Positions 1 through 13,951 of a stretch of 26,452 bases of DNA are shown in pieces (the stretch's first letter is position 1; each line of letters begins with the position of its first letter). The notes beneath the pieces were generated by a model. The model worked only from the letters and a program-made list of their open reading frames with translations, made no database searches and was not told where the DNA came from. The DNA comes from a virus (Duplodnaviria; Caudoviricetes), in the IMG/VR virus record IMGVR_UViG_3300042196_000135, positions 1 through 26,452 of that record; one strand, written 5' to 3'. The translations under genes were made by a program, and so were the position numbers.

Positions 1-27
1 GTCTTATAGAGGGGATATGTAGGGATT

Positions 28-381: not shown

Positions 382-395
382 ATCACCCCAAGATA

Positions 396-424
396 AAAAG
401 CCCTGCTCAGTGAGCCGGGCTTCG
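396..424 (-). terminator. tR'-like intrinsic terminator
   Basis: Minus strand AAGCCCGGCTCACTGAGCAGGGCTTTT: a hairpin plus U-tract between the late promoter and HNH. Confidence 0.6.
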
Positions 425-467
425 TTTGATTTCTGTGCTGAGTGACAATTCGCTCAGCCTGACTGGT

Positions 468-497
468 TTTATACAGTTCTTTGCATGCAGATGTCAA
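468..497 (-). promoter_or_regulatory. pR'-like late promoter
   Basis: Minus strand TTGACA-18 bp-TATAAA, with TG before the -10. It overlaps the end of the Q-like gene and precedes a terminator. Confidence 0.7.
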
Positions 498-909
498 TAC
501 TATTTCTATTAAATTTCTTCATGGAGTACACGAAACAATCATACCAGGCGTGCGCTGACTCCATATCAGCCACAAACTTATTACGACCAATGGGCCTTCC
601 CAGCTGCCTGGACAGTATCTTGCTCTGCCTTTCACGGCTGGCCATGATCGTATAGGCCACAATGAGCAGATCACGGTAATACTCTGGCATTTCTAGCAGC
701 ACACGCTCAGCGCGCGCTATGTTTGGTGGTACATATGGATCTGCTGCTATTCTCTTTTTGCAGTCCTTGATCAATATATCAGGCCCGTACTGCATCATCC
801 TGTGCTCTAGTGACTCTGTGGCATAGCCTAGATTGACATCACCGCGCATGAACAAACCCCACTCTGCCAAATCCCTGATCGTGTCTTCATTGATTCTGCC
901 ATCACTCAT
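469..909 (-). CDS. Late antiterminator Q-like protein
   Basis: N-terminal LAEWGLFMR motif; located after the replication genes and before a promoter/terminator pair. Start set at 909 by the ATGA overlap. Confidence 0.7.
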   Translation of the reverse strand: MSDGRINEDTIRDLAEWGLFMRGDVNLGYATESLEHRMMQYGPDILIKDCKKRIAADPYVPPNIARAERVLLEMPEYYRDLLIVAYTIMASRERQSKILSRQLGRPIGRNKFVADMESAHAWYDCFVYSMKKFNRNSIDICMQRTV

Positions 910-1367
910 GCCGCACCACCCGCCTGTTGTTGTTTTTTTATTGGATACCCAATTTGCCGAATCTTTTCCCACTCACGATCACGCGCTGCTGTGCTGGCCT
1001 TCACAATGGTTGGCGCCTTTGGCTCTGGCTTTGCGTTTCTGTATGCCTCCTCACAGCAGCGTTCGAACTGACCCAGTGTTGGCGCCCACTGTGGGTTGGT
1101 GTGCATCCAGGTAGTCATGGCCGTGTTGATTTCATCGTTGGTATATTTCACCAGTGCAACACCCCACTCCACCAGAGCAACAGCCAGCTCATTCTCATTG
1201 CTAAACCGGTTTGACCATGGTTGGCCATAGTGCGCTTTCAGGCGCACAAATAAGGCGCTGACAACGGGTTTTGGTAAGCACTTCTCAGGGCTACCAATCT
1301 TCACCGCTGAACGCTGCTGCTGTGCCGTTGGCGAATACGTCTGCGCGATTTTGCCGATTGGCTCCAT
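906..1367 (-). CDS. Replication protein P-like (helicase loader)
   Basis: LFVRLKAHYGQPWSNRF and WAPTLGQF motifs resemble phage P-type proteins; follows the O-like gene. Start MEPIG follows a G-rich RBS. Confidence 0.65.
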   Translation of the reverse strand: MEPIGKIAQTYSPTAQQQRSAVKIGSPEKCLPKPVVSALFVRLKAHYGQPWSNRFSNENELAVALVEWGVALVKYTNDEINTAMTTWMHTNPQWAPTLGQFERCCEEAYRNAKPEPKAPTIVKASTAARDREWEKIRQIGYPIKKQQQAGGAA

Positions 1368-2073
1368 GTGTGCCCCCCCGTGGTTTTGGATGTATGTTTT
1401 TCCAGCGTGATGAAATGCAATATTCAATCGTTTCCAGCTGCTCTTGGTGGTTACCCAGGCTGATGATCAAATTGATCATCGACGGCATTTCGTGTGGCAG
1501 AAATGTTCTGCCGTGCCGTTTCTCCATGTGCTCCAACCACCGCGCCACTGCAGCAGTATTGCACTGTGGTGGGTAGTTCTTATCTTTAATCTTTAATTCA
1601 AGTTCTAAAGATTCAGACCCCCGTTTTTGGGGGTATTCGATACCCCCGTTTTTGGTGGTATCTCCGGTTATAATACCGCCACATTTGGGGGTATCACTTT
1701 TACCAATACCCCCGTTTTTGGTGGTATCTGTGGATAACTTTTCAGACGTGTCTGCGCCTTCAATACCCCCACTTTTGGGGGGATTAGAATCAGCCTCTTG
1801 CTGTATCTCAGTTACCACCAACCGATAAATTTTAGTTCTACCACTGCGCCCACATCGATCACCCGTGAACACCAGCAACCCCTGCCCCTGCAAATCTGCC
1901 ATCGCCCGGCTAAGGGTCTTTTCATTCAGCCCAGTATCCGCGATCAATCGCGTTATGCTGGGAAAACAGAGCAAATCCGTATTCGCCCTGCAGGCCAACG
2001 CCAGCAGCACATGCGCGCTAGATGACGGCCTCACCGGCAACGTCAACGCCCAATTAACAGCCCTATAATCCAT
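1291..2073 (-). CDS. Replication initiator O-like protein with N-terminal HTH
   Basis: VLLALACRAN...CFPSITRLIADTGLNEKTLSRAMADLQGQGLL winged HTH; internal iteron repeats. Confidence 0.85.
   Translation of the reverse strand: MDYRAVNWALTLPVRPSSSAHVLLALACRANTDLLCFPSITRLIADTGLNEKTLSRAMADLQGQGLLVFTGDRCGRSGRTKIYRLVVTEIQQEADSNPPKSGGIEGADTSEKLSTDTTKNGGIGKSDTPKCGGIITGDTTKNGGIEYPQKRGSESLELELKIKDKNYPPQCNTAAVARWLEHMEKRHGRTFLPHEMPSMINLIISLGNHQEQLETIEYCISSRWKNIHPKPRGGTHGANRQNRADVFANGTAAAFSGEDW
1578..1785. repeat. Probable replication origin: five iterons, an AT-rich tract and a DnaA box
   Basis: Repeats of about ATACCCCCGTTTTTGGTGGTATC near 1617, 1641, 1672, 1707 and 1763. AT-rich tract at about 1578-1612. 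TGTGGATAA at 1729-1737. Confidence 0.8.
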
Positions 2074-2106
2074 AGCACCATGCAGCTTGTGTGTGTGCCC
2101 TCCCTG

Positions 2107-2457
2107 TCATAACCACCGCACCAACTGCCCAGAAAACGGCAACCCGTGAGTGTCCTTAAAAAACTGAATAAACGCCGCCGCAGAATCAAAGCCATCCGCT
2201 TTGGCAAACGCCGCCAGCTCATCAGCAGGCAATAGACGATTACCCACCATCACCCCCGTGCGATCAATAAACACCTCATCCACCGACTCACAGCGCGTGT
2301 GCCGCAACCGCCGGCAACCAGGCTGGCGCATACCGGTAAACAAATAAAGCTCATCACCAGGCTTGAAAGGCCGCGCACGCTTCGCACGAATGGTCTGCTT
2401 TTTATCGCCGCACTCCACCTTATAGGCAAATTCACGTTTGAAGTTTATGGCTGGCAT
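2107..2457 (-). CDS. ASCH/PUA-like domain protein
   Basis: INFKREF..KVECGDKKQTIR...KPGDELYLFTGMR and FAKADGF motifs. Confidence 0.8.
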   Translation of the reverse strand: MPAINFKREFAYKVECGDKKQTIRAKRARPFKPGDELYLFTGMRQPGCRRLRHTRCESVDEVFIDRTGVMVGNRLLPADELAAFAKADGFDSAAAFIQFFKDTHGLPFSGQLVRWL

Positions 2458-3188
2458 GCTGGAAAATCCTTATATTCAAAATCACCAATCAGACAACCGC
2501 CTTTTGCAAGCCCGGTGCCGCCCCATTGCTTAAAGAAAAATGCAACCTCCCATATTTGCGCCAGCAGCCGTAGTCGAGAAACCCAATCAACAGCCATTTG
2601 CCGCGCATCATTGCCCGATTCACCGCCACAAATAATCCAGTCAATACCCGTTAAATCAAGCCGCGAGCTCACATCTTCCAACAACGGCTCACATGACAAA
2701 AACCGGATAACAGCAGGCACGCTGCGCAAAATATCCACGCGCGGCACACCGCGCTTAACATCCTCAACAGTCACCCCCAGCCACACATTGTGGAAACCAT
2801 CGCCCCAGTCATCAGGCAAAAACCGCTTTATATTCGGCGCGCGCTTAGTCAGCAGCAACCAATCCATATCCGGGGTTTCGCGTATCACCTGCCACAACCG
2901 TTCGCGCTGGCCTGCCGGTGCATCATTGCTGAACACATCGCACATAGACCCGCAAAAAACCCGCAAGCGCCGGCCTTCACGCACCGCCTGCCGCTGCAAC
3001 TTGTGCGGCAGCTTCCAGTTATTGTCAGACATCGCGCGCGGCTTTGTGCCAGCACCCCAGTGATGACCACCAAACCGGTGATCTAGCGTTTCCGCATAAC
3101 AATGATCACAGCCAGGCGAAACCTTAGTGCAACCCCACCAGGGGTTAAATGTGGCATCACACCAGCTGATGTTTGTGGTTTCAGCCAT
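2445..3188 (-). CDS. Phage Gp37/Gp68 family (DUF5131) radical-SAM-like protein
   Basis: ISWCDATFNPWWGCTKVSPGCDHCYAE, LLTKR, FLSCEPLL, WIICGGESG and FFFKQWGG motifs. Confidence 0.92.
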   Translation of the reverse strand: MAETTNISWCDATFNPWWGCTKVSPGCDHCYAETLDHRFGGHHWGAGTKPRAMSDNNWKLPHKLQRQAVREGRRLRVFCGSMCDVFSNDAPAGQRERLWQVIRETPDMDWLLLTKRAPNIKRFLPDDWGDGFHNVWLGVTVEDVKRGVPRVDILRSVPAVIRFLSCEPLLEDVSSRLDLTGIDWIICGGESGNDARQMAVDWVSRLRLLAQIWEVAFFFKQWGGTGLAKGGCLIGDFEYKDFPACQP

Positions 3189-3194
3189 GCTTAA

Positions 3195-3587
3195 TCAACC
3201 CCCCGCAACAGACTGATAATCACGATAGATAGCCTGCAAAATATCCTTGTCATGCTCGCTGGTGTAATTGCTGGCCATGCGCCGACGCAGGCAGGCCAAT
3301 TTGTCTGGCAGCATAAAGCTGAAACTGCCGCCTCTGGTTGCAATGCGGCGTATGCCCGGCTTGAATTTAAAATGTGAATCAGATGGTTCCAGATCTGGGT
3401 TATATCGCCACCGCGACAGGCCAGTAACATTGCAGATACCATCTTTTTCAATGCTGCCGCACTTGTTCACCATCATACTGATGTATGGCGTATCCAGCTC
3501 ATCACACACATCTGCAATCTGTCTCACAGTCAACGAACTTTCAGCAATCGCCTGTTTTAGCATTGTGATTTTCCCACCGTATTCCAT
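3195..3587 (-). CDS. Hypothetical protein, possible HTH
   Basis: Packed in the operon with a TGATG overlap at 3587; alternative start 3563. Confidence 0.6.
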   Translation of the reverse strand: MEYGGKITMLKQAIAESSLTVRQIADVCDELDTPYISMMVNKCGSIEKDGICNVTGLSRWRYNPDLEPSDSHFKFKPGIRRIATRGGSFSFMLPDKLACLRRRMASNYTSEHDKDILQAIYRDYQSVAGG

Positions 3588-3787
3588 CACCACCCCCGCA
3601 CCCGCAAAAACACCGGCCACACCGTAGCCATAAAAAACCAATATTTCACCCACCACAAAACACTGCGGCGCAGGCGCTGGTTCACAAAACTGGATGACGC
3701 CATACCAATGAAAATGCCTATAAACACATAACAGGTCAACAGCCCCAGCAAAAAGCCCTTGATTCCAGTCAAAGTGAATTCCATCAT
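3587..3787 (-). CDS. Small membrane protein
   Basis: Two hydrophobic segments; overlaps both neighbours. Confidence 0.6.
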   Translation of the reverse strand: MMEFTLTGIKGFLLGLLTCYVFIGIFIGMASSSFVNQRLRRSVLWWVKYWFFMATVWPVFLRVRGW

Positions 3788-4005
3788 CTAATCGGTCCCA
3801 TGTTGTCTAAAAAGGTGGTGATGTCATCGCCGTTTTCCTCTACCGCTTCCAGCAACGCATTCCATTGATCACAGACATCAGCTTCCACACCCACCGGTGA
3901 TGCATCGATAACCGTAGCAGCGGCAAACTCATTGGCCACCAGTTCATTGGCAGCATTAAACACTGTCACCAGCTGCAGGAATGTTTTATCGTTGACTTCA
4001 ATCAT
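3784..4005 (-). CDS. Hypothetical acidic protein
   Basis: Start/stop coupling with neighbours; GGAGGGG RBS. Confidence 0.65.
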   Translation of the reverse strand: MIEVNDKTFLQLVTVFNAANELVANEFAAATVIDASPVGVEADVCDQWNALLEAVEENGDDITTFLDNMGPIR

Positions 4006-4193
4006 TACCCCTCCCCAGCATCATATAAAAACCCCTTTTTCTCACGCCTGCAGCGCGGAAAGGTTTTATTAACCGTGCACAAATAAATATTGCACATCAC
4101 CTGCTGGCTGCGCACGCAACAGCCGCTTTTTTTCTGTTGCACTTCCATGCGCACTGCTGCTTCCAGCGTGGGGTTTGCGTAAGTATCTGCCAC
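4005..4193 (-). CDS. Small Cys-rich hypothetical protein
   Basis: Operon-packed ORF with several Cys; probable GTG start. Confidence 0.55.
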   Translation of the reverse strand: MADTYANPTLEAAVRMEVQQKKSGCCVRSQQVMCNIYLCTVNKTFPRCRREKKGFLYDAGEG

Positions 4194-4196
4194 CCC

Positions 4197-4415
4197 CTAC
4201 ACTGCCAATAACTTACCAGGGCGCAATGAGCATTTATGAAACGCCCGCACCAATGCCGTTTTGTTCATGCCCCGCGCATAGCCGCGCTGGTGTTCCAGCG
4301 TTTGCAAATAGAATAAATGCCACAGCGTGCTGTATTGCAGTTCGCCGGGCGTGTTTGACACCGCCGCTGGCAGTGATTGCACAGCGGCCATGTTATTGAC
4401 TACCAATTGCAGCAT
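4197..4415 (-). CDS. Hypothetical protein
   Basis: AGGAGG RBS before the MLQLVVNN start. Confidence 0.55.
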   Translation of the reverse strand: MLQLVVNNMAAVQSLPAAVSNTPGELQYSTLWHLFYLQTLEHQRGYARGMNKTALVRAFHKCSLRPGKLLAV

Positions 4416-4536
4416 GGGGCTTTGCCTCCTTGGGTTTTTCCTGTTGTACCGCCTGCAGCGCCAGCGCATATACAATGCGCTCGATAGCGTTTTCGATGGC
4501 GGTGTCTGGGTGGGTTTGTGGGGCGGTGGCTGTCAT
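4393..4536 (-). CDS. Hypothetical 47-aa protein (not in the ORF track)
   Basis: MTATAPQTHPDTAIENAIERIVYALALQAVQQEKPKEAKPHAAIGSQ; TAATG overlap with the upstream stop. Confidence 0.5.
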   Translation of the reverse strand: MTATAPQTHPDTAIENAIERIVYALALQAVQQEKPKEAKPHAAIGSQ

Positions 4537-4724
4537 TACAGCAACCCCTTCTCTATTGCGAACCATTCAGGCAGAAAAACCGATTCAATAACACCGGCGG
4601 TTTCGCATTGATCGGTGATCATAGACTTTGGAATCCACACCTCTGTTTTACCATCGAACACCAGCATGGCTTTTTCAGTGACGCGCCTTACTTCCACGGC
4701 GATTTCGATTTCTTTAACGCTCAT
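4536..4724 (-). CDS. Small phage hypothetical protein
   Basis: RVTEKAMLVFDGKTEVWIPKS...LPEWFAIEKGL; ATGA coupling. Confidence 0.75.
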   Translation of the reverse strand: MSVKEIEIAVEVRRVTEKAMLVFDGKTEVWIPKSMITDQCETAGVIESVFLPEWFAIEKGLL

Positions 4725-5083
4725 GGCACACTCGCAGATTTCAGCAAACCATGTATGTGCGGCAACATACGCATCAGCTCATTCATCGCCTGCTTTTTAC
4801 GCACCGAGCCATCCTGCACAAATTTTTCAATCAGCCAATACACTGGCCTGATGTCACCCGTGGCAATCAGCAATTCATCAAACCGGGGCAGCGGAAACTC
4901 CACATTGTCGCCCGGGTTGTGATTGAGTTTGCGTGACAGCTCAGAAACCGACATATCCAGATCAGCCGCAATCTGCTTAAACGGCCTGCCGCAGCTGTAA
5001 ACCGAGGCCGTGACCACATCACGCCAGGCGGGGTACTGATCCAGCAGGCTTCCGTCATAATTAAGCTCTATCTGGTTTTGCAT
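4721..5083 (-). CDS. CII-like transcriptional regulator
   Basis: KQIAADLDMSVSELSRKLN HTH, located downstream of cro. Confidence 0.75.
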   Translation of the reverse strand: MQNQIELNYDGSLLDQYPAWRDVVTASVYSCGRPFKQIAADLDMSVSELSRKLNHNPGDNVEFPLPRFDELLIATGDIRPVYWLIEKFVQDGSVRKKQAMNELMRMLPHIHGLLKSASVP

Positions 5084-5146
5084 GGGTCACCTGAATAACG
5101 CTGAAACTTTGTTTCAGTGCGTTTCAGTAGCTGATTGAGGCCAAAT

Positions 5147-5183
5147 AAAAACCCCCCGGCCAGCTTTACTGCTGGACCGGGGG
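5147..5183 (-). terminator. Intrinsic terminator between cro and cII (tR1 position)
   Basis: Minus strand CCCCCGGTCCAGC-loop-GCTGGCCGGGGGGTTTTT. Confidence 0.6.
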
Positions 5184-5330
5184 CAACCACAAACAGGTGT
5201 GTGCGCGGTGCACTTTGTTAGAGCACCAATTAAATGGGAAACACCGCACACAACACCAACCAAAATTGAGGGACACCCAGTGCTAGAATCGAAAATCTCA
5301 CAAAACGACCCCATCACCAGGAACCCCCCA

Positions 5331-5597
5331 ATGACCGACATAACCGCAGAAGATTTTGAAAACGTGTCTTTATTCGCCCACCACATCGGGCTAAAAGCCC
5401 TGTTTGACGTGCTGGCGCAGCACCAGCCAACGCTGGCCGCAGACGTGGCGATGGAATTAACCCAGGCACAAGCCGCGCTTCCACAGATAATGAGGGCAGA
5501 CCTGGCCGGCCATGTGCAGAGCAACCTGCAAGCGTGGATTGATCGCCTGCAGCAAAATACGCCGCCCATACCTTCAAATCATCAGCAACCCAATTGA
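5331..5597 (+). CDS. Hypothetical helical protein, antisense to the cro operon
   Basis: AGGA RBS; extended -10 TGCTAGAAT at 5281-5289; its stop abuts the cro stop. Confidence 0.6.
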   Translation: MTDITAEDFENVSLFAHHIGLKALFDVLAQHQPTLAADVAMELTQAQAALPQIMRADLAGHVQSNLQAWIDRLQQNTPPIPSNHQQPN

Positions 5598-5828
5598 TCA
5601 TGCGGCAGCCTCGCGTTCATCATATATATCAGGGCGCAGATCGCTTTCACGAATACCAGTTATGCGCACCACAATGGGCAAACGCTCTGCTGGCACTTGT
5701 TTGCGCCATTGATTTATCGCCTGCGACGTTACACCACACGCAGTCGCCAATTTGCGCTGGTTGCCACCAATATCGCACCAGCTATTAAATGACTGACTAG
5801 CGCTGTTTTTTATGGATTTGTTTGACAT
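5598..5828 (-). CDS. cro: Cro-like (YdaS-type) HTH regulator
   Basis: GGNQRKLATACGVTSQAINQW...VPAER...LRPDIY; divergent from cI. Confidence 0.88.
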   Translation of the reverse strand: MSNKSIKNSASQSFNSWCDIGGNQRKLATACGVTSQAINQWRKQVPAERLPIVVRITGIRESDLRPDIYDEREAAA

Positions 5829-5834
5829 GGGCGG

Positions 5835-5919
5835 AGTAAAGCATGGCTTGACCACAGTTGTCAAGCAACACTTGATTGTTTTTTCCCATGGCATAACCGA
5901 ACATCAAGCAATGCTTGAT
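5835..5919. promoter_or_regulatory. OR-like operators and pR-like promoter
   Basis: 17-bp palindromic operators GTAAAGCATGGCTTGAC (5836-5852), GTCAAGCAACACTTGAT (5860-5876) and ATCAAGCAATGCTTGAT (5903-5919). Minus-strand TTGACA (5864-5859), 18 bp, TTTACT (5840-5835). Confidence 0.85.
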
Positions 5920-6285
5920 ACTATCGGACAGCGAATAAAACACATCATCGACAACTCACCACTGACACAATCAGATATTGCGGCCCAATGCGGCGTCACC
6001 AAACAAGCAATCACAGGCTGGACAAACAAAAGCGCTATCACGAAACAGAATCTCAGCAAATTCTGCAAAATAACCCACACCAACATGCAATGGGTATTAG
6101 AAAAAAAAGGCGCTATGATGATAGAGACAGCTCATCACCAGATAGAGGAGCCAGTCGCACCGTACAACATGGATGATGTAAAATTACTAGACAGAATAAA
6201 CAAACTTAGCCATGCTGATCGCGTGCGACTGGCAGCCATCATTGACGCGCTTAATAGCACGGTGGACAAATCCACCGGCAGCTAA
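5911..6285 (+). CDS. cI: CI-like XRE repressor, short form
   Basis: TIGQRIK...LTQSDIAAQCGVTKQAITGW HTH; no recognisable S24 peptidase domain. Confidence 0.85.
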   Translation: MLDTIGQRIKHIIDNSPLTQSDIAAQCGVTKQAITGWTNKSAITKQNLSKFCKITHTNMQWVLEKKGAMMIETAHHQIEEPVAPYNMDDVKLLDRINKLSHADRVRLAAIIDALNSTVDKSTGS

Positions 6286-6308
6286 CCTACCCCACAAGGA
6301 CGGCAAAA

Positions 6309-6698
6309 ATGACAAAATATCTCATACTAACCACAGCAATATTCTTCAGTTTCCAGACCGCGGCAGAAGAAAACATAAATAATCAAATAGACTTAGCAGA
6401 AGCTAATTTAGAAATCCTCAACAGCCTTGCAACCCGCTGCAGTGTAGAAATTGATGTTTATGGTGCAGAAGCCCTGCAAAAAAACGCCTGCACCAAACTC
6501 ATCACCAACGCCGGCGGTGACTTTATGACCCAAACCACAAACGCCTGCAAAGCTATAATTGATTGGAGCAAAGCCAACCGGCAAACCCAAGTCACGCATG
6601 CACAATTCAATAGAATTGGCCAGGCATGCAACCCGCAGCGTTACCCCTACATCACAAAAGCGCTCACAAAAATCAGAAGCCTGCAAAAACTACAGTAA
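6309..6698 (+). CDS. Exported protein downstream of cI (possible exclusion or lysogenic-conversion factor)
   Basis: Signal peptide MTKYLILTTAIFFSFQTAA; four Cys; AAGGA RBS. Function is inferred only from position. Confidence 0.7.
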   Translation: MTKYLILTTAIFFSFQTAAEENINNQIDLAEANLEILNSLATRCSVEIDVYGAEALQKNACTKLITNAGGDFMTQTTNACKAIIDWSKANRQTQVTHAQFNRIGQACNPQRYPYITKALTKIRSLQKLQ

Positions 6699-6737
6699 AT
6701 AGCACTAATACCGACCCCCAAAAATAATGATTAAAAT

Positions 6738-6778
6738 GTAAAGCATTGCTTGACAGTGCGATAAAGCCATGCTTTACT
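6738..6778 (+). promoter_or_regulatory. pL-like promoter with two OL operators
   Basis: TTGACA (6750-6755), 17 bp, TTTACT (6773-6778). Operators GTAAAGCATTGCTTGAC (6738-6754) and ATAAAGCCATGCTTTAC (6761-6777) match the OR sites. Confidence 0.88.
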
Positions 6779-6804
6779 CTCTCTAGACCACAACGGAGAG
6801 CCAC

Positions 6805-7173
6805 ATGCAAACAGCCACCACACACCCCCTATTCACCAAATACCCCCGCCACCCCGTGCCCGGGGCAGTCGAATCAGAAATCCACTGGATCATGCCCGGT
6901 AAGCCTACCTACCTGGCACCCGGCGTGGTCATGGGCATTGAATACGATGATGACAACACCGCCACATTCAAAATATGGGTTGACGGCAAACGCATCAAAA
7001 ACCTGCAAACCAACAGCCGCCGCCAGCTGGATCTGCGCACCAGCCTGGGCCTGATCGTCACCCACATTAGCAACAAACACAACACCATCACCGGCTACGC
7101 AGAAAAAAGCCTGATCGAAATCGCCCCCGTGCCACTGCACCTGATAGGCGCTGAACTGGGTGGCCAGCAATGA
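6805..7173 (+). CDS. Hypothetical protein, first gene of the pL operon
   Basis: GGAG RBS; immediately after the promoter. Confidence 0.75.
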   Translation: MQTATTHPLFTKYPRHPVPGAVESEIHWIMPGKPTYLAPGVVMGIEYDDDNTATFKIWVDGKRIKNLQTNSRRQLDLRTSLGLIVTHISNKHNTITGYAEKSLIEIAPVPLHLIGAELGGQQ

Positions 7174-7388
7174 GTGGCCTGTCGTCATCCAAATTTTTAG
7201 CACTCAGCGCATACAAACCACCCAAAAAACCGCGCGGCAAGGCAGGCACCAAACTGGCCAAAACCGCCATCAAACACCGCTGCAGCATTCACGGCAAACA
7301 AAACACCACCAGCAGCGTGCACCTGTGGCACCTGCAAGTGCAAACCAACAACAACCTGCAACGCATCAAAGCACGGATGGCAGCATGA
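7170..7388 (+). CDS. Small basic hypothetical protein
   Basis: ATGA coupling at both ends; Lys/Arg-rich. An N-like antiterminator role is possible but unsupported. Confidence 0.6.
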   Translation: MSGLSSSKFLALSAYKPPKKPRGKAGTKLAKTAIKHRCSIHGKQNTTSSVHLWHLQVQTNNNLQRIKARMAA

Positions 7389-7753
7389 GCCAATTACTAG
7401 ACCCCCGCGATGATCCAGACTACAAAAACAAAACCCGCGCAGAGCTGTACACACAGCTGGTGGCTGCACAAGAAGAAGCTGACGACTTCCGCGCTGACAG
7501 CCATAATGAAATACGCGGGCGCCAACGTGCAGAGGACAAACTTAAAGACACGGAATCAGAAAACGCCGTGCTACAGAAAAAACTGCATGATCTGCGCATC
7601 GCCATCGAAACCGCCATGGCCATGCGCTTTCCAGATGCACCACACGTCACCAAAGCATTTGGCTACGTTATGAGCACCAGCACGGAATATACAAAAACAG
7701 AAACAAGCGAAGAATTAAACCTGCTGCAACACCTGCACAGGCTTGCAACGTAA
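7385..7753 (+). CDS. Coiled-coil hypothetical protein
   Basis: ATGA-coupled start MSQLLD; heptad-like segment. Confidence 0.7.
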   Translation: MSQLLDPRDDPDYKNKTRAELYTQLVAAQEEADDFRADSHNEIRGRQRAEDKLKDTESENAVLQKKLHDLRIAIETAMAMRFPDAPHVTKAFGYVMSTSTEYTKTETSEELNLLQHLHRLAT

Positions 7754-7924
7754 TGAGTCTTACACGCAACAGCGCACCTGCATTCGCCAATGTTGCGCGC
7801 AACGGGTGGCAAGCATTCCCGTTTAAGTGCAGGAGGGGCCGCGCCAGCGACATGCCAGCGAACCCCCATGGAAAACTCCTGACCATGGCACAGACTGGCA
7901 AACCCAACAACCGAGGGCAATGAT

Positions 7925-8146
7925 ATGGACCTGTATCTATTTATATTAATTGCAATCATCTACCTGGGCGCCGGCATCTACCCCAGCAGCCACATGCACG
8001 ACAACAGCCGCCTGTATTACAGCCTGACAGAAAACAGCTTCATATTCACATGGCTGCTATGGATCAGCTGGCTGCCCGTGTTTGTAGTCTATATGTACAA
8101 CCAATCGCTGAAAACAAAACCAGAAGGCGACGAACATGGATACTAA
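7925..8146 (+). CDS. Small membrane protein
   Basis: Two hydrophobic segments; GAGG RBS. Confidence 0.65.
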   Translation: MDLYLFILIAIIYLGAGIYPSSHMHDNSRLYYSLTENSFIFTWLLWISWLPVFVVYMYNQSLKTKPEGDEHGY

Positions 8147-8339
8147 CGAAATCAGTTATTGCCTGGCGAAGCAAATCTCAACAATGCACGCGATCGCCAC
8201 GAACTACGGTTATATTGAGCTTGATGAAGCAATGCAAGAAGCCGTAGAAAATGCGCTGCGTCCACTCTTAGAGAAGAGGCTGGAAGAACAATCAAGAATA
8301 GTGCAGGAAATAAACGAATGGGAGCAGTATGAAACATAA
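8136..8339 (+). CDS. Hypothetical protein
   Basis: Overlaps the upstream gene and ends just before the cassette array. Confidence 0.65.
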   Translation: MDTNEISYCLAKQISTMHAIATNYGYIELDEAMQEAVENALRPLLEKRLEEQSRIVQEINEWEQYET

Positions 8340-8374
8340 TCTAATATTGCAATAACCTCCGCTTTAGCACAGGC

Positions 8375-8459
8375 AGATAACGTTTAAGTTAATTTGCGGC
8401 GCGATGCTGCATGACAGTGGCGGACTGGTTAACCGTCAAAATTGAACGCCATGTTATGT
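8375..8459 (-). other. attC site 1 (85 bp)
   Basis: Minus strand ACATAAC-atggc-GTTCAATT...AATTAAC-ttaaac-GTTATCT. Confidence 0.85.
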
Positions 8460-8479
8460 GCATGGTGGGAGTATATAAA

Positions 8480-8653
8480 ATGGCAATAATTGAATTGAAT
8501 GTAAAACGGTTTTTGGTGTGCAGCACTGGCGAGGACGTTGATTTTCCAGAACCAGAGGACAGTCTTGAAGCCGCTATTGCGATGCGCGACAAAAACAACG
8601 AAGACGAAGATAATGACGAGGGATGGGATATTGTGGCAGAAGTAGACGCATAA
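8480..8653 (+). CDS. Cassette ORF: small acidic hypothetical protein
   Basis: GGAG RBS; stop lies within the GCATAAC box. Confidence 0.7.
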   Translation: MAIIELNVKRFLVCSTGEDVDFPEPEDSLEAAIAMRDKNNEDEDNDEGWDIVAEVDA

Positions 8654-8697
8654 CGATAAAGTTGAAGACAACGAACTAGCGGAGTGACTTGTTAGGT
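8648..8697 (-). other. attC site 2, short and degenerate (50 bp)
   Basis: R boxes are intact (plus strand GCATAAC and GTTAGGT) but the L boxes pair poorly. Polarity is assumed from neighbouring sites. Confidence 0.6.
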
Positions 8698-8719
8698 GCT
8701 CTAAATACGGAGAACGGAC

Positions 8720-8956
8720 ATGACACCAGAACAGATGGCGAAGGATGCGGCGCTGGCGATACAAGGCGGAACGAGAATGACGCTGGTTTTACCGAGGCCG
8801 TGGCGAAATAGGCCACTGAAGTTTCCGCGTGGAGAATTGCTGTGCGAAAACTCCAACGGCTGCAATGTTTACAGTTTCGACCCGCTTCGAGTGCTGGCAT
8901 GGCTCGCCGCTAACGGATTGGTGAAAGTGGAAACAAAGGTAGCACCTAACGATTAA
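8720..8956 (+). CDS. Cassette ORF: hypothetical protein
   Basis: GGAG RBS; flanked by GTTAGGTGCT and AGCACCTAAC. Confidence 0.75.
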   Translation: MTPEQMAKDAALAIQGGTRMTLVLPRPWRNRPLKFPRGELLCENSNGCNVYSFDPLRVLAWLAANGLVKVETKVAPND

Positions 8957-9004
8957 GTTAAAGCGCCGCGCTTTTCGCGGTCGATTTTGAACGCCTTGTT
9001 AGGC
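8944..9004 (-). other. attC site 3 (61 bp)
   Basis: Minus strand GCCTAAC-aaggc-GTTCAAAA-tcgaccgcgaaaagcgcggcg-CTTTAAC-ttaatc-GTTAGGT. Confidence 0.92.
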
Positions 9005-9017
9005 GCGGTGGTGAAAA

Positions 9018-9311
9018 ATGTACGAATGCACATGCCCTTATTGTGGCAAAACAATGGATGACCCGGATGATTGCTATGAACCGGATGTAACTTATGAGTA
9101 TGAATGCCCCAACTGTGAGAAAAACTTTGTATTTACAATCGACTATATCCGAACCTACAGCGAGAAAAAAGCCGACTGTCTCAATGGTGCAGAGCATGAA
9201 TATAAGCCAACCATAACTTACCCGAAGCAATGCACAAAAATGCGGTGCGAACACTGTGATGATGTGCGGGCATGCACAGAACAGGAGCTGGCGCAGGTAT
9301 TGAGCGCCTAA
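9018..9311 (+). CDS. Cassette ORF: multi-CxxC zinc-ribbon protein
   Basis: CPYC, CPNC and CEHC motifs; flanked by GTTAGGCGC and GCGCCTAAC. Confidence 0.8.
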   Translation: MYECTCPYCGKTMDDPDDCYEPDVTYEYECPNCEKNFVFTIDYIRTYSEKKADCLNGAEHEYKPTITYPKQCTKMRCEHCDDVRACTEQELAQVLSA

Positions 9312-9365
9312 CGACCAGCATCAGGCGCGGCGCTTTTTGCCGTCGCCTGAATGTGCTGGTTAGGT
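9306..9365 (-). other. attC site 4 (60 bp)
   Basis: Minus strand ACCTAAC-cagcacATTCAGGCgacggc-aaaaagc-gccgcGCCTGATgctggtc-GTTAGGC. Confidence 0.88.
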
Positions 9366-9377
9366 TGCGGAGGAATT

Positions 9378-9658
9378 ATGAAAGAGAAGAAATTACTCGA
9401 AGAACTGAAATCCTGCGTTGATGACTGGGGTGATAATTTTGATATTGATCTTGTGCAAGAGGACTACTGGAAAGGCAATACCTATTTATCAGTAATCATC
9501 ACCCACAAGTCGCTTGGCCATGATTACGAATTTAGAGCGCGTGTCAGTGACGAAGGTACTGTGAAATGGACTACAACGAGGATAGCTGGACACCGATAAA
9601 TATGGGAAATTTGTTTGCATGGATGTGGTTTGATACTGCGCCGAAAAGAGCAACCTAA
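9378..9658 (+). pseudogene. Cassette ORF with an apparent 1-bp deletion near 9560
   Basis: The first frame stops at 9599. The shifted frame reads [31 protein letters not shown] and stops inside the ACCTAAC box. The span is 281 nt. Confidence 0.65.
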
Positions 9659-9775
9659 CGCCCAAGGTAAGCCGCCCGCCGCCAACGAACCGAACAAGGG
9701 AAACGAATGCTAGACACAGAACAGAACGAAAACGAAGCCGCTTGCGGCGGGTCGGCCTTGACCGCCGTGTTAGGG
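9653..9775 (-). other. attC site 5 (123 bp)
   Basis: Minus strand CCCTAAC-acggc-GGTCAAGG-ccgacccgccgc...gcggcgggcg-GCTTACC-ttgggc-GTTAGGT. Confidence 0.88.
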
Positions 9776-10276
9776 GTGGGATCCACGCGGATGCACCCGC
9801 ACGAAAACAAGTTTCACGCGGGCAACAGAGAAGACGGGAAGCACTACTGGCTGACGCCACCCGAGCTTTACACGGAACTGAACGCTGAATTTAATTTTGA
9901 CTTTGACCCCTGCCCTTACCCGAAGCCAGACGACTTCGACGGGCTGACGTGCGAGTGGGGGCAGCGGAACTATGTGAACCCCCCTTTCGGATCCATCGTG
10001 CACCAGGGGAAGAAGAAGGGGCCGACTGCGTGGATGCGCAAGGCCATCGAGGAACAGCGGAAGGGGAAGCTGTCGGTTGTGGTGTACCCAGTGGACAAGT
10101 GGGTTCTGATGATGATGGCCGCGATAGGGGCGCAGAACATCCGAAACCTCGGCGATGTGAAGTGGTGCGCCACAGAGGACGGATCCAAGGGCAAGGGCAC
10201 TGGCCGGCACATCGCGTGCTTCGTGCTGACCCCTAACGCAAAGCTAACCGGCGGGCCGTCAGGCCCGTCCGGTTGA
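9707..10276 (+). CDS. Cassette ORF: phage-type DNA N6-adenine methyltransferase (Dam-like)
   Basis: WLTPPELY..LNAEFNFDFDPCP, DGLTCEW and YVNPPF motifs. Alternative start 9791. Confidence 0.85.
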   Translation: MLDTEQNENEAACGGSALTAVLGVGSTRMHPHENKFHAGNREDGKHYWLTPPELYTELNAEFNFDFDPCPYPKPDDFDGLTCEWGQRNYVNPPFGSIVHQGKKKGPTAWMRKAIEEQRKGKLSVVVYPVDKWVLMMMAAIGAQNIRNLGDVKWCATEDGSKGKGTGRHIACFVLTPNAKLTGGPSGPSG

Positions 10277-10290
10277 GCGACAGGTTATAA
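10231..10290 (-). other. attC site 6 (60 bp)
   Basis: Minus strand TTATAAC-ctgtc-GCTCAACC-ggacgggcctgacggcccgcc-GGTTAGC-tttgc-GTTAGGG. Confidence 0.92.
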
Positions 10291-10293
10291 CGC

Positions 10294-10572
10294 ATGTTGC
10301 TGGCACTGGACTACGACGAAACGTACACCGAAGACCCGGAGTTCTGGGACTTGGTGATTGGGCTTGCTGTGACACGCGGCCATTCGGTTATTTGCGCCAC
10401 GATGCGGCACGAGCACGAAGGAGAGGACATTGTTTCTGCTCTCGGCCATAAGGTTGAGCGGATAATTTTCACCGGCAGGAAAGCCAAGCATCAGTTTGTG
10501 CAAGAGGCCGGATATTACCCGTCTGTGTGGATTGACGATTCGCCACATTGGCTATTTCGGGATGCGTTATAA
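10294..10572 (+). CDS. Cassette ORF: minimal HAD-superfamily phosphatase-like protein
   Basis: ALDYDET, CATMR, K and WIDDSP motifs. Flanked by the perfect 12-bp pair GTTATAACGCAT and ATGCGTTATAAC. Confidence 0.8.
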   Translation: MLLALDYDETYTEDPEFWDLVIGLAVTRGHSVICATMRHEHEGEDIVSALGHKVERIIFTGRKAKHQFVQEAGYYPSVWIDDSPHWLFRDAL

Positions 10573-10584
10573 CTAATATTAGAA
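10567..10584. other. attI-like core, interrupted by the inverted cassette
   Basis: TTATAAC-TAAT-ATTAGAA: two opposed core boxes with no attC body between them, at the intI-proximal end of the array. Confidence 0.55.
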
Positions 10585-10836
10585 CCCTGCAAACTCTGGC
10601 ATGCGCTCGAACTGGTCGCGGGTCAGCCACACCGATGTTATGGCGTACTCATAGCGTTCATCGCCCAGCAGATCGTGCGCCTCGTGACACTCCATCACGC
10701 AGGCCGTGCCGTCGTATTCAACCCTGGCAAATTCTTCGGTCACATAGTCCTCACAAGCTGGCGCGTGGGTGCTTGGCGGGTATTTTCCGCCCATCGTTTC
10801 GCGCAAGTCTCGGCACATCGTCTGGCAGTTACACAT
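10579..10836 (-). CDS. Inverted cassette ORF: hypothetical protein
   Basis: Minus strand GTTAGAACCC-GGAG-ccagct-ATG ... GGGTTCTAAT. Confidence 0.78.
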   Translation of the reverse strand: MCNCQTMCRDLRETMGGKYPPSTHAPACEDYVTEEFARVEYDGTACVMECHEAHDLLGDERYEYAITSVWLTRDQFERMPEFAGF

Positions 10837-10849
10837 AGCTGGCTCCGGG

Positions 10850-10910
10850 TTCTAACACGGCGTTCAAAATCGACCGCGAAAAGCGCGGCGCTTTAACTTA
10901 ATCATTATAC
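10850..10910 (+). other. attC site 7 (61 bp), opposite polarity, with R' = ATTATAC
   Basis: TTCTAAC-acggc-GTTCAAAA...CTTTAAC-ttaatc-ATTATAC; internal 47 bp match site 3 at 46 positions. Confidence 0.88.
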
Positions 10911-10944
10911 GACAAATAACGATTAACACGAGAAGAGACAGCGA

Positions 10945-11922
10945 ATGAACAAACACAAATCGCCTTTCTTAAATGAACTTCGACATCACATGCACGCGCG
11001 TAATTACAGCGAAGCCACGATAAAATCCTATGTCAGCTGGGCGTTGAAATATATTGTGTTCAACCACAAAAAACACCCGCGCGACATGGGCCGTGAACAG
11101 GTGGAACAATACCTGGCACACCTTGCTACTGCTCGCTATTGCTCTGTGGCCACACAAAAGCAGGCGCTCAATGCGCTGGCGTATTTGTACAATCGGTTTT
11201 TAATAAAACCACTTGGCACGCTCACCATCAAAAAAGCGCGCAAACCAAAACGCCTGCCCACCGTGCTATCGGTTAGCGAAGTCAACGCCCTGCTGGAAAA
11301 CCTCACCGGCGTTTACCTTACCTGCGCGCTGCTCATGTATGGCGGTGGCCTTCGCCTGATGGAATGCCTGCGCCTGCGCATAAAAGATATAGATTTTGAA
11401 CGCAAACAAATCACCGTGCGCGGTGGCAAAGGTGACAAAGACCGCACCACCATGCTGCCCCTGTCTGCCATCAAACCCCTGCAGCGCCAACTGGCACTGG
11501 CAGGCAAATACCACCAGCAGGATCTGGCCAACAACAAAGCCAACGTGTGGCTACCGAATGCACTGGCGCGCAAATACCCAAACGCACCTGCACAATGGGG
11601 CTGGCAATGGCTGTTCCCCGCCAGCGGTTATTGCAGTGACAAATACACTGGCGAAATCCGCCGCCACCACATACACCCAAAATCACTGCAACGTGCCATC
11701 AAACACGCCGTGCACGCTGCCCATATAAACAAACCCGCCAGCGCACACACCTTGCGCCACAGCTTCGCCACGCACCTGCTGGAAACCGGCGTCAACATTC
11801 GCGTAATACAAGACCTGCTCGGCCATCAAAACATCAACACCACCATGATCTACACCCATGTGATGACCCACGGCACCACCGGCCTGCAAAGCCCCGCAGA
11901 TTTGCGCATGGCACAGCAATGA
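10945..11922 (+). CDS. intI: Integron integrase
   Basis: Tyrosine recombinase residues in [29 protein letters not shown] and TTMIYTH. Also carries the IntI-specific insertion [18 protein letters not shown]...TGEIRRHH. Confidence 0.96.
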
Positions 11923-12152
11923 CCACCCAATGCAAACTAGACCGCTGCCAGGAGCGCTTCACACCAAAGCGCCCAGGCCATAAATTCTGCTGTGATGCCC
12001 ACAGGGCAGAATACCGCCGCGACCACCAGCCCGGCACAGGCACCATCAAAGCCCTGCGCCAGTTGAAAACCACCGGCTGGTCAGTCACAATCCACTTTGA
12101 CACCCAGCCAGCTGTCAGCGTGGGCGCAAAAATACAACTGAGCCGCGATTAA
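11919..12152 (+). CDS. Small Cys/His-containing protein (possible directionality factor)
   Basis: [20 protein letters not shown]; ATGA-coupled to intI and upstream of the serine integrase. Function is inference. Confidence 0.65.
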
Positions 12153-12158
12153 TCGCGG
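12143..12158. repeat. Perfect 16-bp palindrome (possible terminator or binding site)
   Basis: CCGCGATTAATCGCGG followed by TTTAT. Confidence 0.5.
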
Positions 12159-12219
12159 TTTATGGGGTTTAATATGGCAAATGATACCAACATAAGCGAT
12201 CAGCCAGAAAAGCTGTGCG

Positions 12220-12327
12220 TGTTTTTAGGTATGGTAGTGGCGGAATTGGTAGACGCATTAGTGGAGCTGATAGCCCTATGTAAAGACGGCGTGCAGGTTC
12301 GAACCCTGCCTACCATACCTAAAAACA
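12220..12327 (+). ncRNA. tRNA-Leu-like structure lacking a canonical anticodon arm, with an 18-bp acceptor stem
   Basis: D arm TGGCGGAATTGGTAGACGCA; variable arm GCC..GGC; T arm GCAGGTTCGAACCCTGC; flanking perfect 18-bp inverted repeat. Confidence 0.75.
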
Positions 12328-12334
12328 TACTGAC

Positions 12335-13951
12335 ATGACCCCAGCCACCTATCTACGATACAGCACCGACAAACAACGCGAAGCCAGCTGCGAAGATCAG
12401 CTGCGCAATGTGCAAGAATTTTGCAGCCGCAACACCTGGCCGATGCCAGTAATCTATAAAGACGAGGCCACCAGTGGTGCCACGCTCAATCGCGCCGGGC
12501 TCGATGCCATGATCACCGCTGCGGATCGCAAAGAATTTGATGTGTTGATTGTTGATGATCAGAGCCGCCTTGGCCGCAACTACGAAATTCCGCTGATCAT
12601 CGAGCGCATGAAATTTTTTGATATACGCGTGATCTGCATTAACAACGGAATCGACACCAGCCGTGATGGCTATGACCTGCTCGTGTGCATGAATAACATG
12701 ATGGACGTCAAAACTATCAAAGACCTCGCCCAGCGCACCCACCGCGGCCTCACCGGCCAGGTGCTAAAAGGCAAAAGCGCGGGCGGCAAAAGCTACGGCT
12801 ACAGCAGCCAGGCGATCGACGACGGATACATAAAAACAATCGTGCCCGAGCAGGCCGAAATTGTGCTGCGCATTTTTACCGATTACGCCAGCGGCCACAG
12901 CCTGCGCCAGATCGCCAACCAGCTCAATGCCGATGGCATCCAAAGCCCAGGCGGAAAACGCTGGCGCACCAGCACGCTCTATGCAGACCCGCTGCGCGGC
13001 ACCGGCCTGCTGTGCAACCCGCTATATAACGGACAATACGTTTGGAACCGGGGCGAATGGCGCAAACACCCCGACACAGGCAAACCCTGCCAACGCCAGC
13101 GCCCACAATCGCAGTGGCACACTATCGATGCCCCGCAGCTGCGCATCATACCGCCAGATCTATGGCAGCGCGTGCAAACCCGCATCGCCACCACCCGCAA
13201 ACACACCCGGGTGCAAATCAGCGCTGGCAAACACCACGGTGGTAGATCGGCGCAGCACATCCTGTCTGGTCTGCTCAAATGCCAGTGCGGCGCGAGCTAT
13301 ATCATCATCAACCGCAACCGCTACGGCTGCGGCGCCAGGCGCGCCAACGGCCACGGCGTGTGCAGCAATGCACTCACCGTCGATCGCACACTGGCAGAGC
13401 AAAAAATTCTAGCTGGCATCAAAACCCAGCTGGCCACCGAGGCCAACTACAAAAAATTTGAAGCCCGAGTGCGCGCCCTGCTCAAACAACGCGAGCCGAA
13501 CACAACAGCCCTGCAGCGCCAGCTCACCGCCGCGACCACAAAGCGCGACAACATCATCAAAGCCATAGAGGCAGGCATATTCACCCCCAGCACCCACGCC
13601 GCCCTACAGGCCGCAGAACACAGCATAGAGCACAGCCAGGCCGCGATCGACCAGGCGCACAAAAACCAGCCCGCCGCCATCCTGCCACGCGCACGCGACA
13701 TCTACAAACAACTGATCGCCCAGCTGGAAAACGCCACAGACAAAAACACGGTGAGAATAGCAGTACAGGAATTAATTGGGGAGATAGAGCTGCAGCCAAG
13801 CCAGTGCAAAACGCACCTGGTGGCCAAAATTACCGGCCATGCCGCTATGGCCGGTAGGTTATCAATGGTAGCGGGGGCAGGATTTGTGTGTTTACCTACC
13901 GATTGGCTTATTCCGCTGACCGGTGCGGATTGTGGCACAAAGAGCGGGTGA
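12335..13951 (+). CDS. int: Large serine recombinase (phage integrase)
   Basis: YLRYSTDKQ catalytic motif, DQSRLGRN, recombinase domain (NPLYNG), zinc ribbon LSGLLKCQCG and a coiled coil. Confidence 0.95.
   Translation: MTPATYLRYSTDKQREASCEDQLRNVQEFCSRNTWPMPVIYKDEATSGATLNRAGLDAMITAADRKEFDVLIVDDQSRLGRNYEIPLIIERMKFFDIRVICINNGIDTSRDGYDLLVCMNNMMDVKTIKDLAQRTHRGLTGQVLKGKSAGGKSYGYSSQAIDDGYIKTIVPEQAEIVLRIFTDYASGHSLRQIANQLNADGIQSPGGKRWRTSTLYADPLRGTGLLCNPLYNGQYVWNRGEWRKHPDTGKPCQRQRPQSQWHTIDAPQLRIIPPDLWQRVQTRIATTRKHTRVQISAGKHHGGRSAQHILSGLLKCQCGASYIIINRNRYGCGARRANGHGVCSNALTVDRTLAEQKILAGIKTQLATEANYKKFEARVRALLKQREPNTTALQRQLTAATTKRDNIIKAIEAGIFTPSTHAALQAAEHSIEHSQAAIDQAHKNQPAAILPRARDIYKQLIAQLENATDKNTVRIAVQELIGEIELQPSQCKTHLVAKITGHAAMAGRLSMVAGAGFVCLPTDWLIPLTGADCGTKSG
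13866..13886 (-). other. Putative attP core matching the 3' end of an initiator tRNA-Met
   Basis: Minus strand CAAATCCTGCCCCCGCTACCA: half T-loop, acceptor strand and CCA. The rest of the tRNA is absent. Confidence 0.78.

What the first reader, a model, noticed from the sequence alone, without database searches (positions are those of the whole stretch)
8375..10910. Cassette ORFs are antisense to canonical attC polarity, so the array is wired backwards
Seen: the extra C in L'' and the unpaired A just beyond it place the top strand of sites 1, 3, 4, 5 and 6 on the minus strand, pointing away from intI as usual. Their ORFs are all on the plus strand. Site 7 and its ORF are both flipped, which preserves the same relationship. 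Each attC therefore lies 5' of its ORF, not 3'. Established: typical cassettes have the ORF followed by attC and are read from Pc next to attI. Inference: these cassettes are read from the CI-repressed pL-like promoter (6750-6778) toward intI. New cassettes would land farthest from the promoter and be expressed only in lytic growth. This suggests a distinct phage-adapted cassette class.
Basis: partly seen in the sequence, partly recalled or inferred. Interest (0 to 1): 0.88.

Follow-up and report, generated by a model that had tools for sequence, protein, structure and literature searches.

The report
Phage integron with back-to-front cassettes
A temperate phage carries an integron whose gene cassettes have the recombination hairpin in front of each gene instead of behind it, variants of the same phage in other sediment samples show these units reshuffled, and the genes are likely read from the phage's own early promoter.

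Summary
Observation confirmed. A covariance model trained only on ordinary (ORF-then-attC) sites puts the top strand of sites 1, 3-6 on minus and of site 7 on plus; every ORF is on the opposite strand. In contigs of three other runs, 15 of 23 breakpoints fall at the predicted TAA|C crossover and none at the other R box, so the attC 5' of each ORF travels with it. attI lies next to intI (intact, TIGR02249), so new cassettes land at the far end of the operon. Cassette 7 is an inverted insertion at the attI L box. Reversed polarity dominates IMG/VR intI loci (22 reversed, 4 ordinary, 6 ties) but not prokaryote-genome ones (1, 15, 1). It is not universal in phages: TJE1 is ordinary. An operator-flanked pL-like promoter exists, but lytic-only expression is untested because no RNA data were available. 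I found no paper describing this class; the scan has noted it before in at least 8 findings on other DNA. Verdict: a real, likely phage-adapted variant of the integron.

The parts
5598..5894 (-). Cro-like HTH gene
   Evidence: phrog_35 repressor E 1e-14
5812..6285 (+). CI-like HTH repressor (likely start 5915); no peptidase domain reported
   Evidence: phrog_4 and phrog_8
5837..5918 (.). three operator-like palindromes (5837, 5861, 5904) over the pR-like promoter
6739..6778 (+). pL-like promoter (TTGACA 6750, TG + TTTACT 6773-6778) overlapped by two operator-like palindromes (6739, 6762)
   Evidence: not listed by the generic scan, whose rule needs an A at position 2 of the -10 box; function inferred
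8141..8215 (-). site 0: decayed attC; crossover TAA|C at 8146|8147 is the array's left edge
   Evidence: R boxes match 6/7 with 8375-8381; an X2 variant leaves the window at 8148
8375..8459 (-). attC site 1 (top strand minus)
8480..8653 (+). cassette ORF1, 57 aa, acidic, stop codon in R box
   Evidence: sequence; RBS; no family hit
8648..8697 (-). attC site 2, L'' arm missing, likely inactive
8720..8956 (+). cassette ORF2, 78 aa, ends inside site 3
   Evidence: RBS
8944..9004 (-). attC site 3, twin of site 7
9018..9311 (+). cassette ORF3, 97 aa, CxxC-rich, stop codon in R box
   Evidence: phrog_6504 E 1e-3
9306..9365 (-). attC site 4
   Evidence: X3 shows it with ORF4 behind another upstream cassette
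9378..9658 (+). cassette ORF4; frameshifted near 9557 in this assembly, open to the R-box TAA in X4 contigs
9653..9775 (-). attC site 5 (123 nt); its loop holds the RBS and ATG of ORF5
9707..10276 (+). cassette ORF5, DNA N6-adenine methyltransferase-like
   Evidence: phrog_111; PF05869 just below cut-off; 73% DNA match to an annotated phage MTase
10231..10290 (-). attC site 6
   Evidence: moves with ORF6 in X2
10294..10572 (+). cassette ORF6, 92 aa, DxDxT motif (HAD-phosphatase-like reading is recalled, not tested)
   Evidence: phrog_4256 and phrog_4919
10567..10578 (-). attI, R box and spacer half
   Evidence: X2 and X3 contigs join it directly to 10904
10579..10836 (-). cassette ORF7, 85 aa, inverted cassette
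   Evidence: X4 shows its end next to another attC at G|TT
10850..10910 (+). attC site 7 (top strand plus); R' triplet reads AAT on the bottom strand, not AAC; 10904-10911 is the attI L-box half
10945..11922 (+). intI, intact integron integrase
   Evidence: TIGR02249 417 bits, cut-off 265; R137 K162 H268 R271 H294 Y303 invariant
12335..13951 (+). large serine recombinase, likely the phage's own integrase, at the end of the same gene run
   Evidence: phrog_95 E 6e-75

Best explanation
This is a phage-borne integron with an ordinary integrase, attI and crossover point, whose cassettes are built attC-first with the gene on the attC bottom strand, so the genes point toward intI and are likely read from the phage's repressor-controlled early promoter rather than from a Pc.

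Shown: the cassette unit runs from one TAA|C to the next and is attC + leader + ORF; units are reshuffled among relatives; attI sits about 40 nt before intI, so new cassettes join at the distal end of the gene run.

Inferred: IntI does the shuffling by folded bottom-strand recombination; intI is co-transcribed behind the cassettes, so shuffling would be tied to early phage expression; cassettes are made from ordinary phage accessory genes placed behind an existing attC/RBS module. Cassette 7 likely entered the attI L box because its R' triplet reads AAT, which matches the L-box cut site rather than the R box, and it would be silent from pL.
For: Strand calls from two methods agree.

Variant junctions: 15 of 23 breakpoints in runs X2-X4 lie at the left R box, 0 at the right R box, 3 at the attI L-box junctions and 5 elsewhere. 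Single contigs keep site 6 + ORF6 (X2), site 4 + ORF4 (X3) and site 5 + ORF5 (X3) together while upstream or downstream neighbours change. Empty attI is seen behind two different last cassettes (X2, X3).

The R boxes flanking each cassette are complementary at 6-7 of 7. attI has the 7+5+GTT geometry of attI1, and cassette 7's junction is at the L-box cut mapped for attI1 in PMC4792948 (passages).

Survey: IMG/VR intI loci with scorable cassettes are 22 reversed, 4 ordinary, 6 ties (32 of 80 scorable); prokaryote genomes 1, 15, 1 (17 of 80), Fisher p 5e-7; pattern-found viral loci 25, 3, 6; metagenome intI loci 10 of 10 cassettes ordinary. PHROG hits: 29 of 98 bottom-strand ORFs vs 3 of 98 top-strand ORFs, 2 of those in the all-ordinary array L193. 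Long attCs carry RBS+ATG on the bottom strand in 15 of 22 and 21 of 32 viral sites vs 0 of 21 ordinary ones.

Cargo origin: 21 ORF6 homologues and one ORF5 homologue elsewhere have no flanking attC called. Upstream genes are co-oriented in 14 of 18 reversed loci.
Against: No RNA or recombination assay was available. The junctions come from assembled contigs, not circles, and do not prove IntI is the agent. Five of 23 breakpoints are off-pattern, the X3 one at 10279 lying inside site 6. The -10 box is non-consensus.

The longest-ORF rule errs: it miscalled 1 and left 1 ambiguous of 4 window cassettes. TJE1's phage array is ordinary, so phages do not require the reversal. The deepest X2 contig has a 1-nt insertion in intI, so not all relatives are active. 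Related loci are not fully independent. The AAT micro-homology idea rests on one junction.
Confidence: 0.8

Rival explanations
1. The structure is as described, but the cassettes are expressed from their own or another promoter (like promoter-bearing reverse cassettes in bacterial arrays, recalled), or also in the lysogen by read-through from the cI unit, so the lytic-only model is wrong.
For: No terminator was found between cI and pL. The uncharacterised intergenic stretch 7753-7923 could hold a promoter. Two 9/12 promoter-like hits on plus lie at 7920 and 8586.
Against: 8 hits were found against 6.6 expected by chance. Leaders between R box and ATG are only about 3-22 nt, and ORF5 starts inside the attC. 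Operators overlap both -35 and -10 of pL.
Confidence: 0.3
2. The array is reshuffled mainly by the host's integron integrase or by homologous recombination between similar attCs, and the phage intI is a dispensable passenger.
For: Many viral arrays were found by pattern alone, without requiring intI. The deepest X2 contig has a frameshifted intI. Twin sites 3 and 7 share 56 nt.
Against: Breakpoints sit at AA|C between dissimilar attCs rather than within shared stems. attI next to this intI is used. The window's IntI is intact.
Confidence: 0.2
3. The polarity call is wrong: this integrase uses the other strand, so the cassettes are ordinary ORF-then-attC units.
For: Folding energies of the two strands are close, and favour minus for site 5.
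Against: 0 of 23 breakpoints lie at the right R boxes. The CM trained on ordinary sites calls minus. The same caller gives ordinary polarity in prokaryote genomes.
Confidence: 0.03
4. Cassette 7's orientation, or the order of 8996-10858, is an assembly artefact caused by the inverted twin sites.
Against: X2, a different study, has a contig 10569-10893 with the same attI/cassette 7 junction. In X1 both flanks enter the repeat from the same end, as the window predicts. The ORF-attC relationship is unaffected either way.
Confidence: 0.08

Closest known systems
Regular integrons (class 1 mobile integrons, sedentary chromosomal integrons); Nivina 2016 PMC5027507, Escudero 2016 PMC4792948 (passages read)
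   Same: IntI family and catalytic residues; intI divergent from the attC top strand; attC boxes and extra-helical base; crossover at AA|C in R'; attI geometry; newest cassette at attI.
   Different: ORFs are on the bottom strand with attC 5' of the gene; no Pc is needed or found; the newest cassette is last, not first, in the transcript; no LexA-box match lies near intI; the RBS/start is often inside the attC.
Phage integrons and CALINs, Qi et al. 2023 PMC9892861 (abstract, parts 2-3 of 6, passages, part 1 of 2 of the supplement)
   Same: attC arrays in phage genomes with methyltransferase cargo; phage attC bottom strands recombine better than top strands.
   Different: The paper's text has no 'opposite', 'reverse', 'antisense' or 'polarity'. 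Its complete integrons are captured pieces of bacterial ones. TJE1 is ordinary. P12002L attC1, read with the paper's bottom strand, lies between two genes coded on that strand, but that site failed their assay and neither my caller nor my CM detected it.
Inverted-integrase integrons (Treponema and others; Cury 2016 PMC4889954, passages)
   Same: An unusual orientation within an integron.
   Different: There intI is flipped relative to attC. Here intI and attC are in the regular relation and the ORFs are flipped.
Cassettes inserted in the wrong orientation by top-strand or L-box recombination (laboratory events in PMC5027507 and PMC4792948)
   Same: Cassette 7 is a whole cassette inverted relative to the array, at attI.
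   Different: Its junctions fit attC R' x attI L box. [quoted passage not shown]

Membership tests
Integron | IntI-type tyrosine recombinase | tested here: met
   TIGR02249 416.9 bits vs cut-off 265, whole length; RKHRHY invariant and the insert around K210/Y211/W220 conserved (the name I2 helix is from PMC4792948)
Integron | attI next to intI that receives cassettes | tested here: met
   Empty attI with different last cassettes in X2 and X3; 7+5+GTT geometry
Integron | attC sites with R/L boxes and extra-helical bases | tested here: met
   Sites 1, 3-7; site 2 lacks L''; site 0 is decayed
Integron | Crossover at AA|C of R' on the bottom strand | tested here: met
   15 of 23 natural breakpoints, 0 at the other R box; indirect, from contigs
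Integron | IntI-catalysed single-strand recombination | not testable with these tools
   Needs an assay
Canonical gene cassette | ORF on the top strand followed by its attC | tested here: not met
   All ORFs are on the bottom strand and the attC 5' of the ORF moves with it
Canonical integron expression | Pc in intI/attI reading the cassette ORFs | tested here: not met
   No minus-strand promoter-like site in 10570-12400; ORFs 1-6 face the other way
Canonical integron expression | LexA box upstream of intI (feature recalled; E. coli-type box only) | tested here: not met
   No match with up to 1 mismatch between 3978 and 13724; other host box types were not tested
Inverted-integrase integrons | intI on the same strand as the attC top strand | tested here: not met
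   intI is on plus and the attC top strand on minus
CI/Cro-controlled early operon | Promoter overlapped by operators shared with the cI/cro region | tested here: met
   5 operator matches, 3 at cI/cro and 2 at pL; pattern derived from these sites, so the 0.25 chance figure is optimistic
CI/Cro-controlled early operon | Transcription repressed in the lysogen and reaching the array | not testable with these tools
   No RNA holder listed

The most novel reading that the evidence does not exclude
Phages run their own mirror-image cassette economy. They build attC-first cassettes from their own accessory genes, with the attC loop supplying the ribosome-binding site, and have recruited integron integrases more than once to shuffle them in the early operon. 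The reversed polarity would act as a firewall: host cassettes, including anti-phage ones, would enter the phage attI silent, and phage cassettes would enter host arrays silent. Because the recombinogenic strand is the non-template strand, early transcription could itself trigger shuffling, and twin sites 3 and 7 could make 8951-10903 an invertible on/off switch.
Probability: 0.35. Interest if true: 0.92.

Novelty: new variant of a known kind. Interest (0 to 1): 0.8.

Why it matters
Strand selectivity of attC is explained in the literature as the device that keeps cassette genes in line with Pc. A widespread class in which the same chemistry places genes against Pc shows that gene orientation is set when a cassette is made and by which promoter reads it.

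It bears on the open question of how cassettes originate. Here the cargo is ordinary phage genes, the same attC sits in front of different ORFs, and the bottom strand is the mRNA-sense strand, which does not fit a reverse-transcript origin for this class (inference). It also gives phages a site-specific way to generate the mosaic early regions they are known for. Tools that assign each gene to the attC behind it would mis-delimit these cassettes.

This locus adds population evidence for which attC travels with which gene, and a natural inverted insertion at the attI L box.

Tried and rejected
Rfam gave only a tRNA. DNA folding energy did not call strands reliably. The first version of my caller found only 2 sites and was replaced. 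A single-protein IntI search of viral contigs returned only Xer-like hits. INPHARED holds no relative of the array, only two methyltransferase matches. A loose pattern search of three Qi-2023 phages was uninformative except for locating P12002L attC1. PH101 and MW202573 sites were not located, so their polarity is untested. An exact attI pattern found nothing in metagenome contigs, and no sister locus of this IntI clade (above 60% identity) was found with flanks.

No RNA holder listed. The Atlas search for ORF7 gave only sub-0.9 leads. GC and AT skews of top strands are similar in reversed and ordinary sites, so they do not separate the classes.

One origin for all reversed arrays is neither shown nor excluded. 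The quick tree needs 7 changes of the label; with three labels scored, at least 2 are forced by strongly supported branches; the careful tree did not finish, and no clade test was run.

Paper searches that found no description of the class. Most subscription papers, the Dryad annotation file and the figures of Qi 2023 were not visible, so prior description cannot be excluded.
Full report
Setting. The window is the whole 26.5-kb record and is part of a temperate tailed phage. A Cro/CI pair lies at 5598-6285, followed by a plus-strand run of small genes from 6805, the array, an integron integrase at 10945-11922 (TIGR02249 417 bits, cut-off 265; catalytic residues invariant) and a large serine recombinase. 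The four best-matching runs are sediment metagenomes.

Observation. Reading the sites by eye and with a hairpin scorer, sites 1, 3, 4, 5 and 6 have the 5-nt spacer and the 8-nt L'' with its extra base on the minus strand, and site 7 on the plus strand. No simulated site reached 12 in 30 x 26 kb, and 3 reached 11. To avoid circularity I built a covariance model from 19 sites that follow an ORF in the ordinary way. It gives the same strands with large margins where both strands scored. The ORFs are on the other strand: ORF5 is a DNA adenine methyltransferase-like gene, and ORF6 and ORF3 hit PHROG families. The opposite-strand ORFs gave one sub-threshold Pfam hit among 7 tested. Four of the seven ORFs stop at the TAA of the next R box as assembled. 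ORF4 does so in X4 contigs, which carry one more base at 9557.

Which attC travels. Contigs of runs X2, X3 and X4 (three studies; X1 left out as a possible source) hold variants of the same array (2 loose ends and 26 pieces were not shown). Of 23 breakpoints that I listed, 15 lie at a left-hand TAA|C, none at a right-hand GTT box, 3 at the attI L-box junctions and 5 elsewhere. Site 6 with ORF6, site 4 with ORF4 and site 5 with ORF5 each appear behind other upstream cassettes, and ORF4, ORF5 and ORF6 each appear in front of other attC-like arms. This is the canonical crossover for a minus top strand, and it means the mobile unit is attC + leader + ORF. The evidence is indirect: contigs, not circles.

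attI and cassette 7. X2 and X3 each have a contig in which a different cassette end is joined straight to 10904. That empty form has a 7-nt L box, a 5-nt spacer and GTTRRRY on the minus strand, like attI1, about 40 nt before the intI start. In the window, cassette 7 sits inverted at the end of the L box, the cut position mapped for attI1 in PMC4792948 (passages). [quoted passage not shown] Site 7's crossover triplet reads AAT rather than AAC, which matches the L box. I infer that this redirected it, on one junction only. The inverted form is also a minor contig in X2 (depth 6.2 vs 29.9), and X4 shows cassette 7's end in a normal G|TT junction. Among the 80 viral intI loci fetched, none had an inverted site adjacent to intI.

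Promoter. Five operator-like palindromes occur, three between cro and cI and two over the -35 and -10 of 6750-6778 (the pattern was taken from these sites). The leftward and rightward promoters share TTGACA-N17/18-TGCTTTACTC. The generic scan does not list this promoter, finds internal candidates at chance level (8 vs 6.6), and finds no plus-strand terminator in 5500-12400. Read-through from pL across the array into intI is therefore plausible. Nothing found blocks read-through from the cI unit either, and no RNA holder was listed. Lytic-only expression is untested.

Is it a class? A top-strand pattern scan of 7 of 64 parts of IMG/VR gave 123 loci, 67 of them with a scored site. By a longest-ORF rule their cassettes were 62 reversed, 9 ordinary, 6 ambiguous and 8 uncalled. 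In viral intI loci the counts were 63, 25, 9 and 3, and in prokaryote-genome intI loci 1, 27, 6 and 9. In metagenome intI loci 10 of 10 were ordinary. Per locus the counts are 22:4 vs 1:15 (p 5e-7; related loci are not independent). The rule over-calls 'ordinary' because of shadow ORFs. PHROG hits fall on 29 of 98 bottom-strand candidates and 3 of 98 top-strand ones, two of them in the all-ordinary array L193. The CM agreed on minus for all 28 sites it found in four reversed loci. Long attCs carry an RBS and ATG on the bottom strand in 15 of 22 and 21 of 32 viral cases and 0 of 21 ordinary ones, as site 5 does here. Against universality: TJE1's published array is ordinary.

Origin. In a quick tree of 120 integrases, 13 reversed arrays sit in one 30-row clade (SH-aLRT 98) that is all viral in the printed tree. 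This window's IntI lies in a separate small clade with P0001 and P0003-P0005, and L189 sits beside a Thiobacillus IntI. Repeated recruitment is suggested, not proven. Homologues of ORF6 in 21 viral loci and of ORF5 in a Bradyrhizobium phage have no flanking attC called. Sites 3 and 7 are twins in front of different ORFs, and an X2 contig follows site 3 and its leader up to the ATG at 9020 and then appears to carry other sequence. This suggests that cassettes arise by placing phage genes behind an existing attC/RBS module (inference).

Literature and earlier notes. Eight searches found no description of reversed cassettes as a class. Qi 2023 reports phage attC arrays without discussing ORF polarity. 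PMC13323075 and the Xanthomonas preprint (passages only) do not address it. The scan's own unchecked notes record the same layout in at least 8 findings on other DNA; I consulted them after my own first survey and do not count them as evidence.

Verdict. It works like an integron and is one by integrase, attI, attC and crossover, but its cassettes fail the canonical ORF-then-attC test. It is a new variant of a known kind, interest 0.8.

Noticed in passing
window 8141-8380: Decayed attC (site 0) inside the 5' part of ORF 8136-8339, with an in-frame ATG in its loop; the ORF before it (7925-8146) also stops at the TAA of an R box. An X2 variant departs at 8148.
   Followed up: partly
window 8951-10903: Segment flanked by the inverted twin sites 3 and 7 (56 nt, 96%); inversion would turn ORF7 on and ORFs 3-6 off relative to pL.
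   Followed up: no
window 11455: The deepest X2 contig has a 1-nt insertion in intI, a likely frameshift, so that variant's array may be frozen.
   Followed up: no
window 12220-12327: tRNA-Ile(GAT)-like call (12231-12319; Rfam 40.5 bits) enclosed by a perfect 18-nt inverted repeat, just before the serine recombinase.
   Followed up: no
window 7753-7923: About 170-nt stretch between early genes with short inverted repeats; could be a regulatory RNA or promoter region. No Rfam hit.
   Followed up: no
window 8250-10500: GC skew turns positive on plus across the cassettes while flanking plus-strand phage genes are negative.
   Followed up: no
window 9889 and 9020: X2 and X4 contigs share the start of cassette 5 to 9889, and X2 the start of cassette 3 to the ATG at 9020, and then diverge: the same attC and leader with other coding sequence.
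   Followed up: partly
L131, L132, L134, L136, L151, L155, L180, L189 (viral) and L210, L211, L222 (prokaryote genomes): Candidate attI sites share AAC + 4 nt + A(T/G)T, as in the window.
   Followed up: partly
L130-L209 cassette ORFs: Reversed cassettes are rich in DNA methyltransferases, PAPS-reductase-like, DHH phosphoesterase and Mom-like genes, i.e. likely DNA-modification and counter-defence cargo.
   Followed up: no
L193: An IMG/VR contig with a 12-site ordinary-polarity array, possibly host chromosome flank.
   Followed up: no
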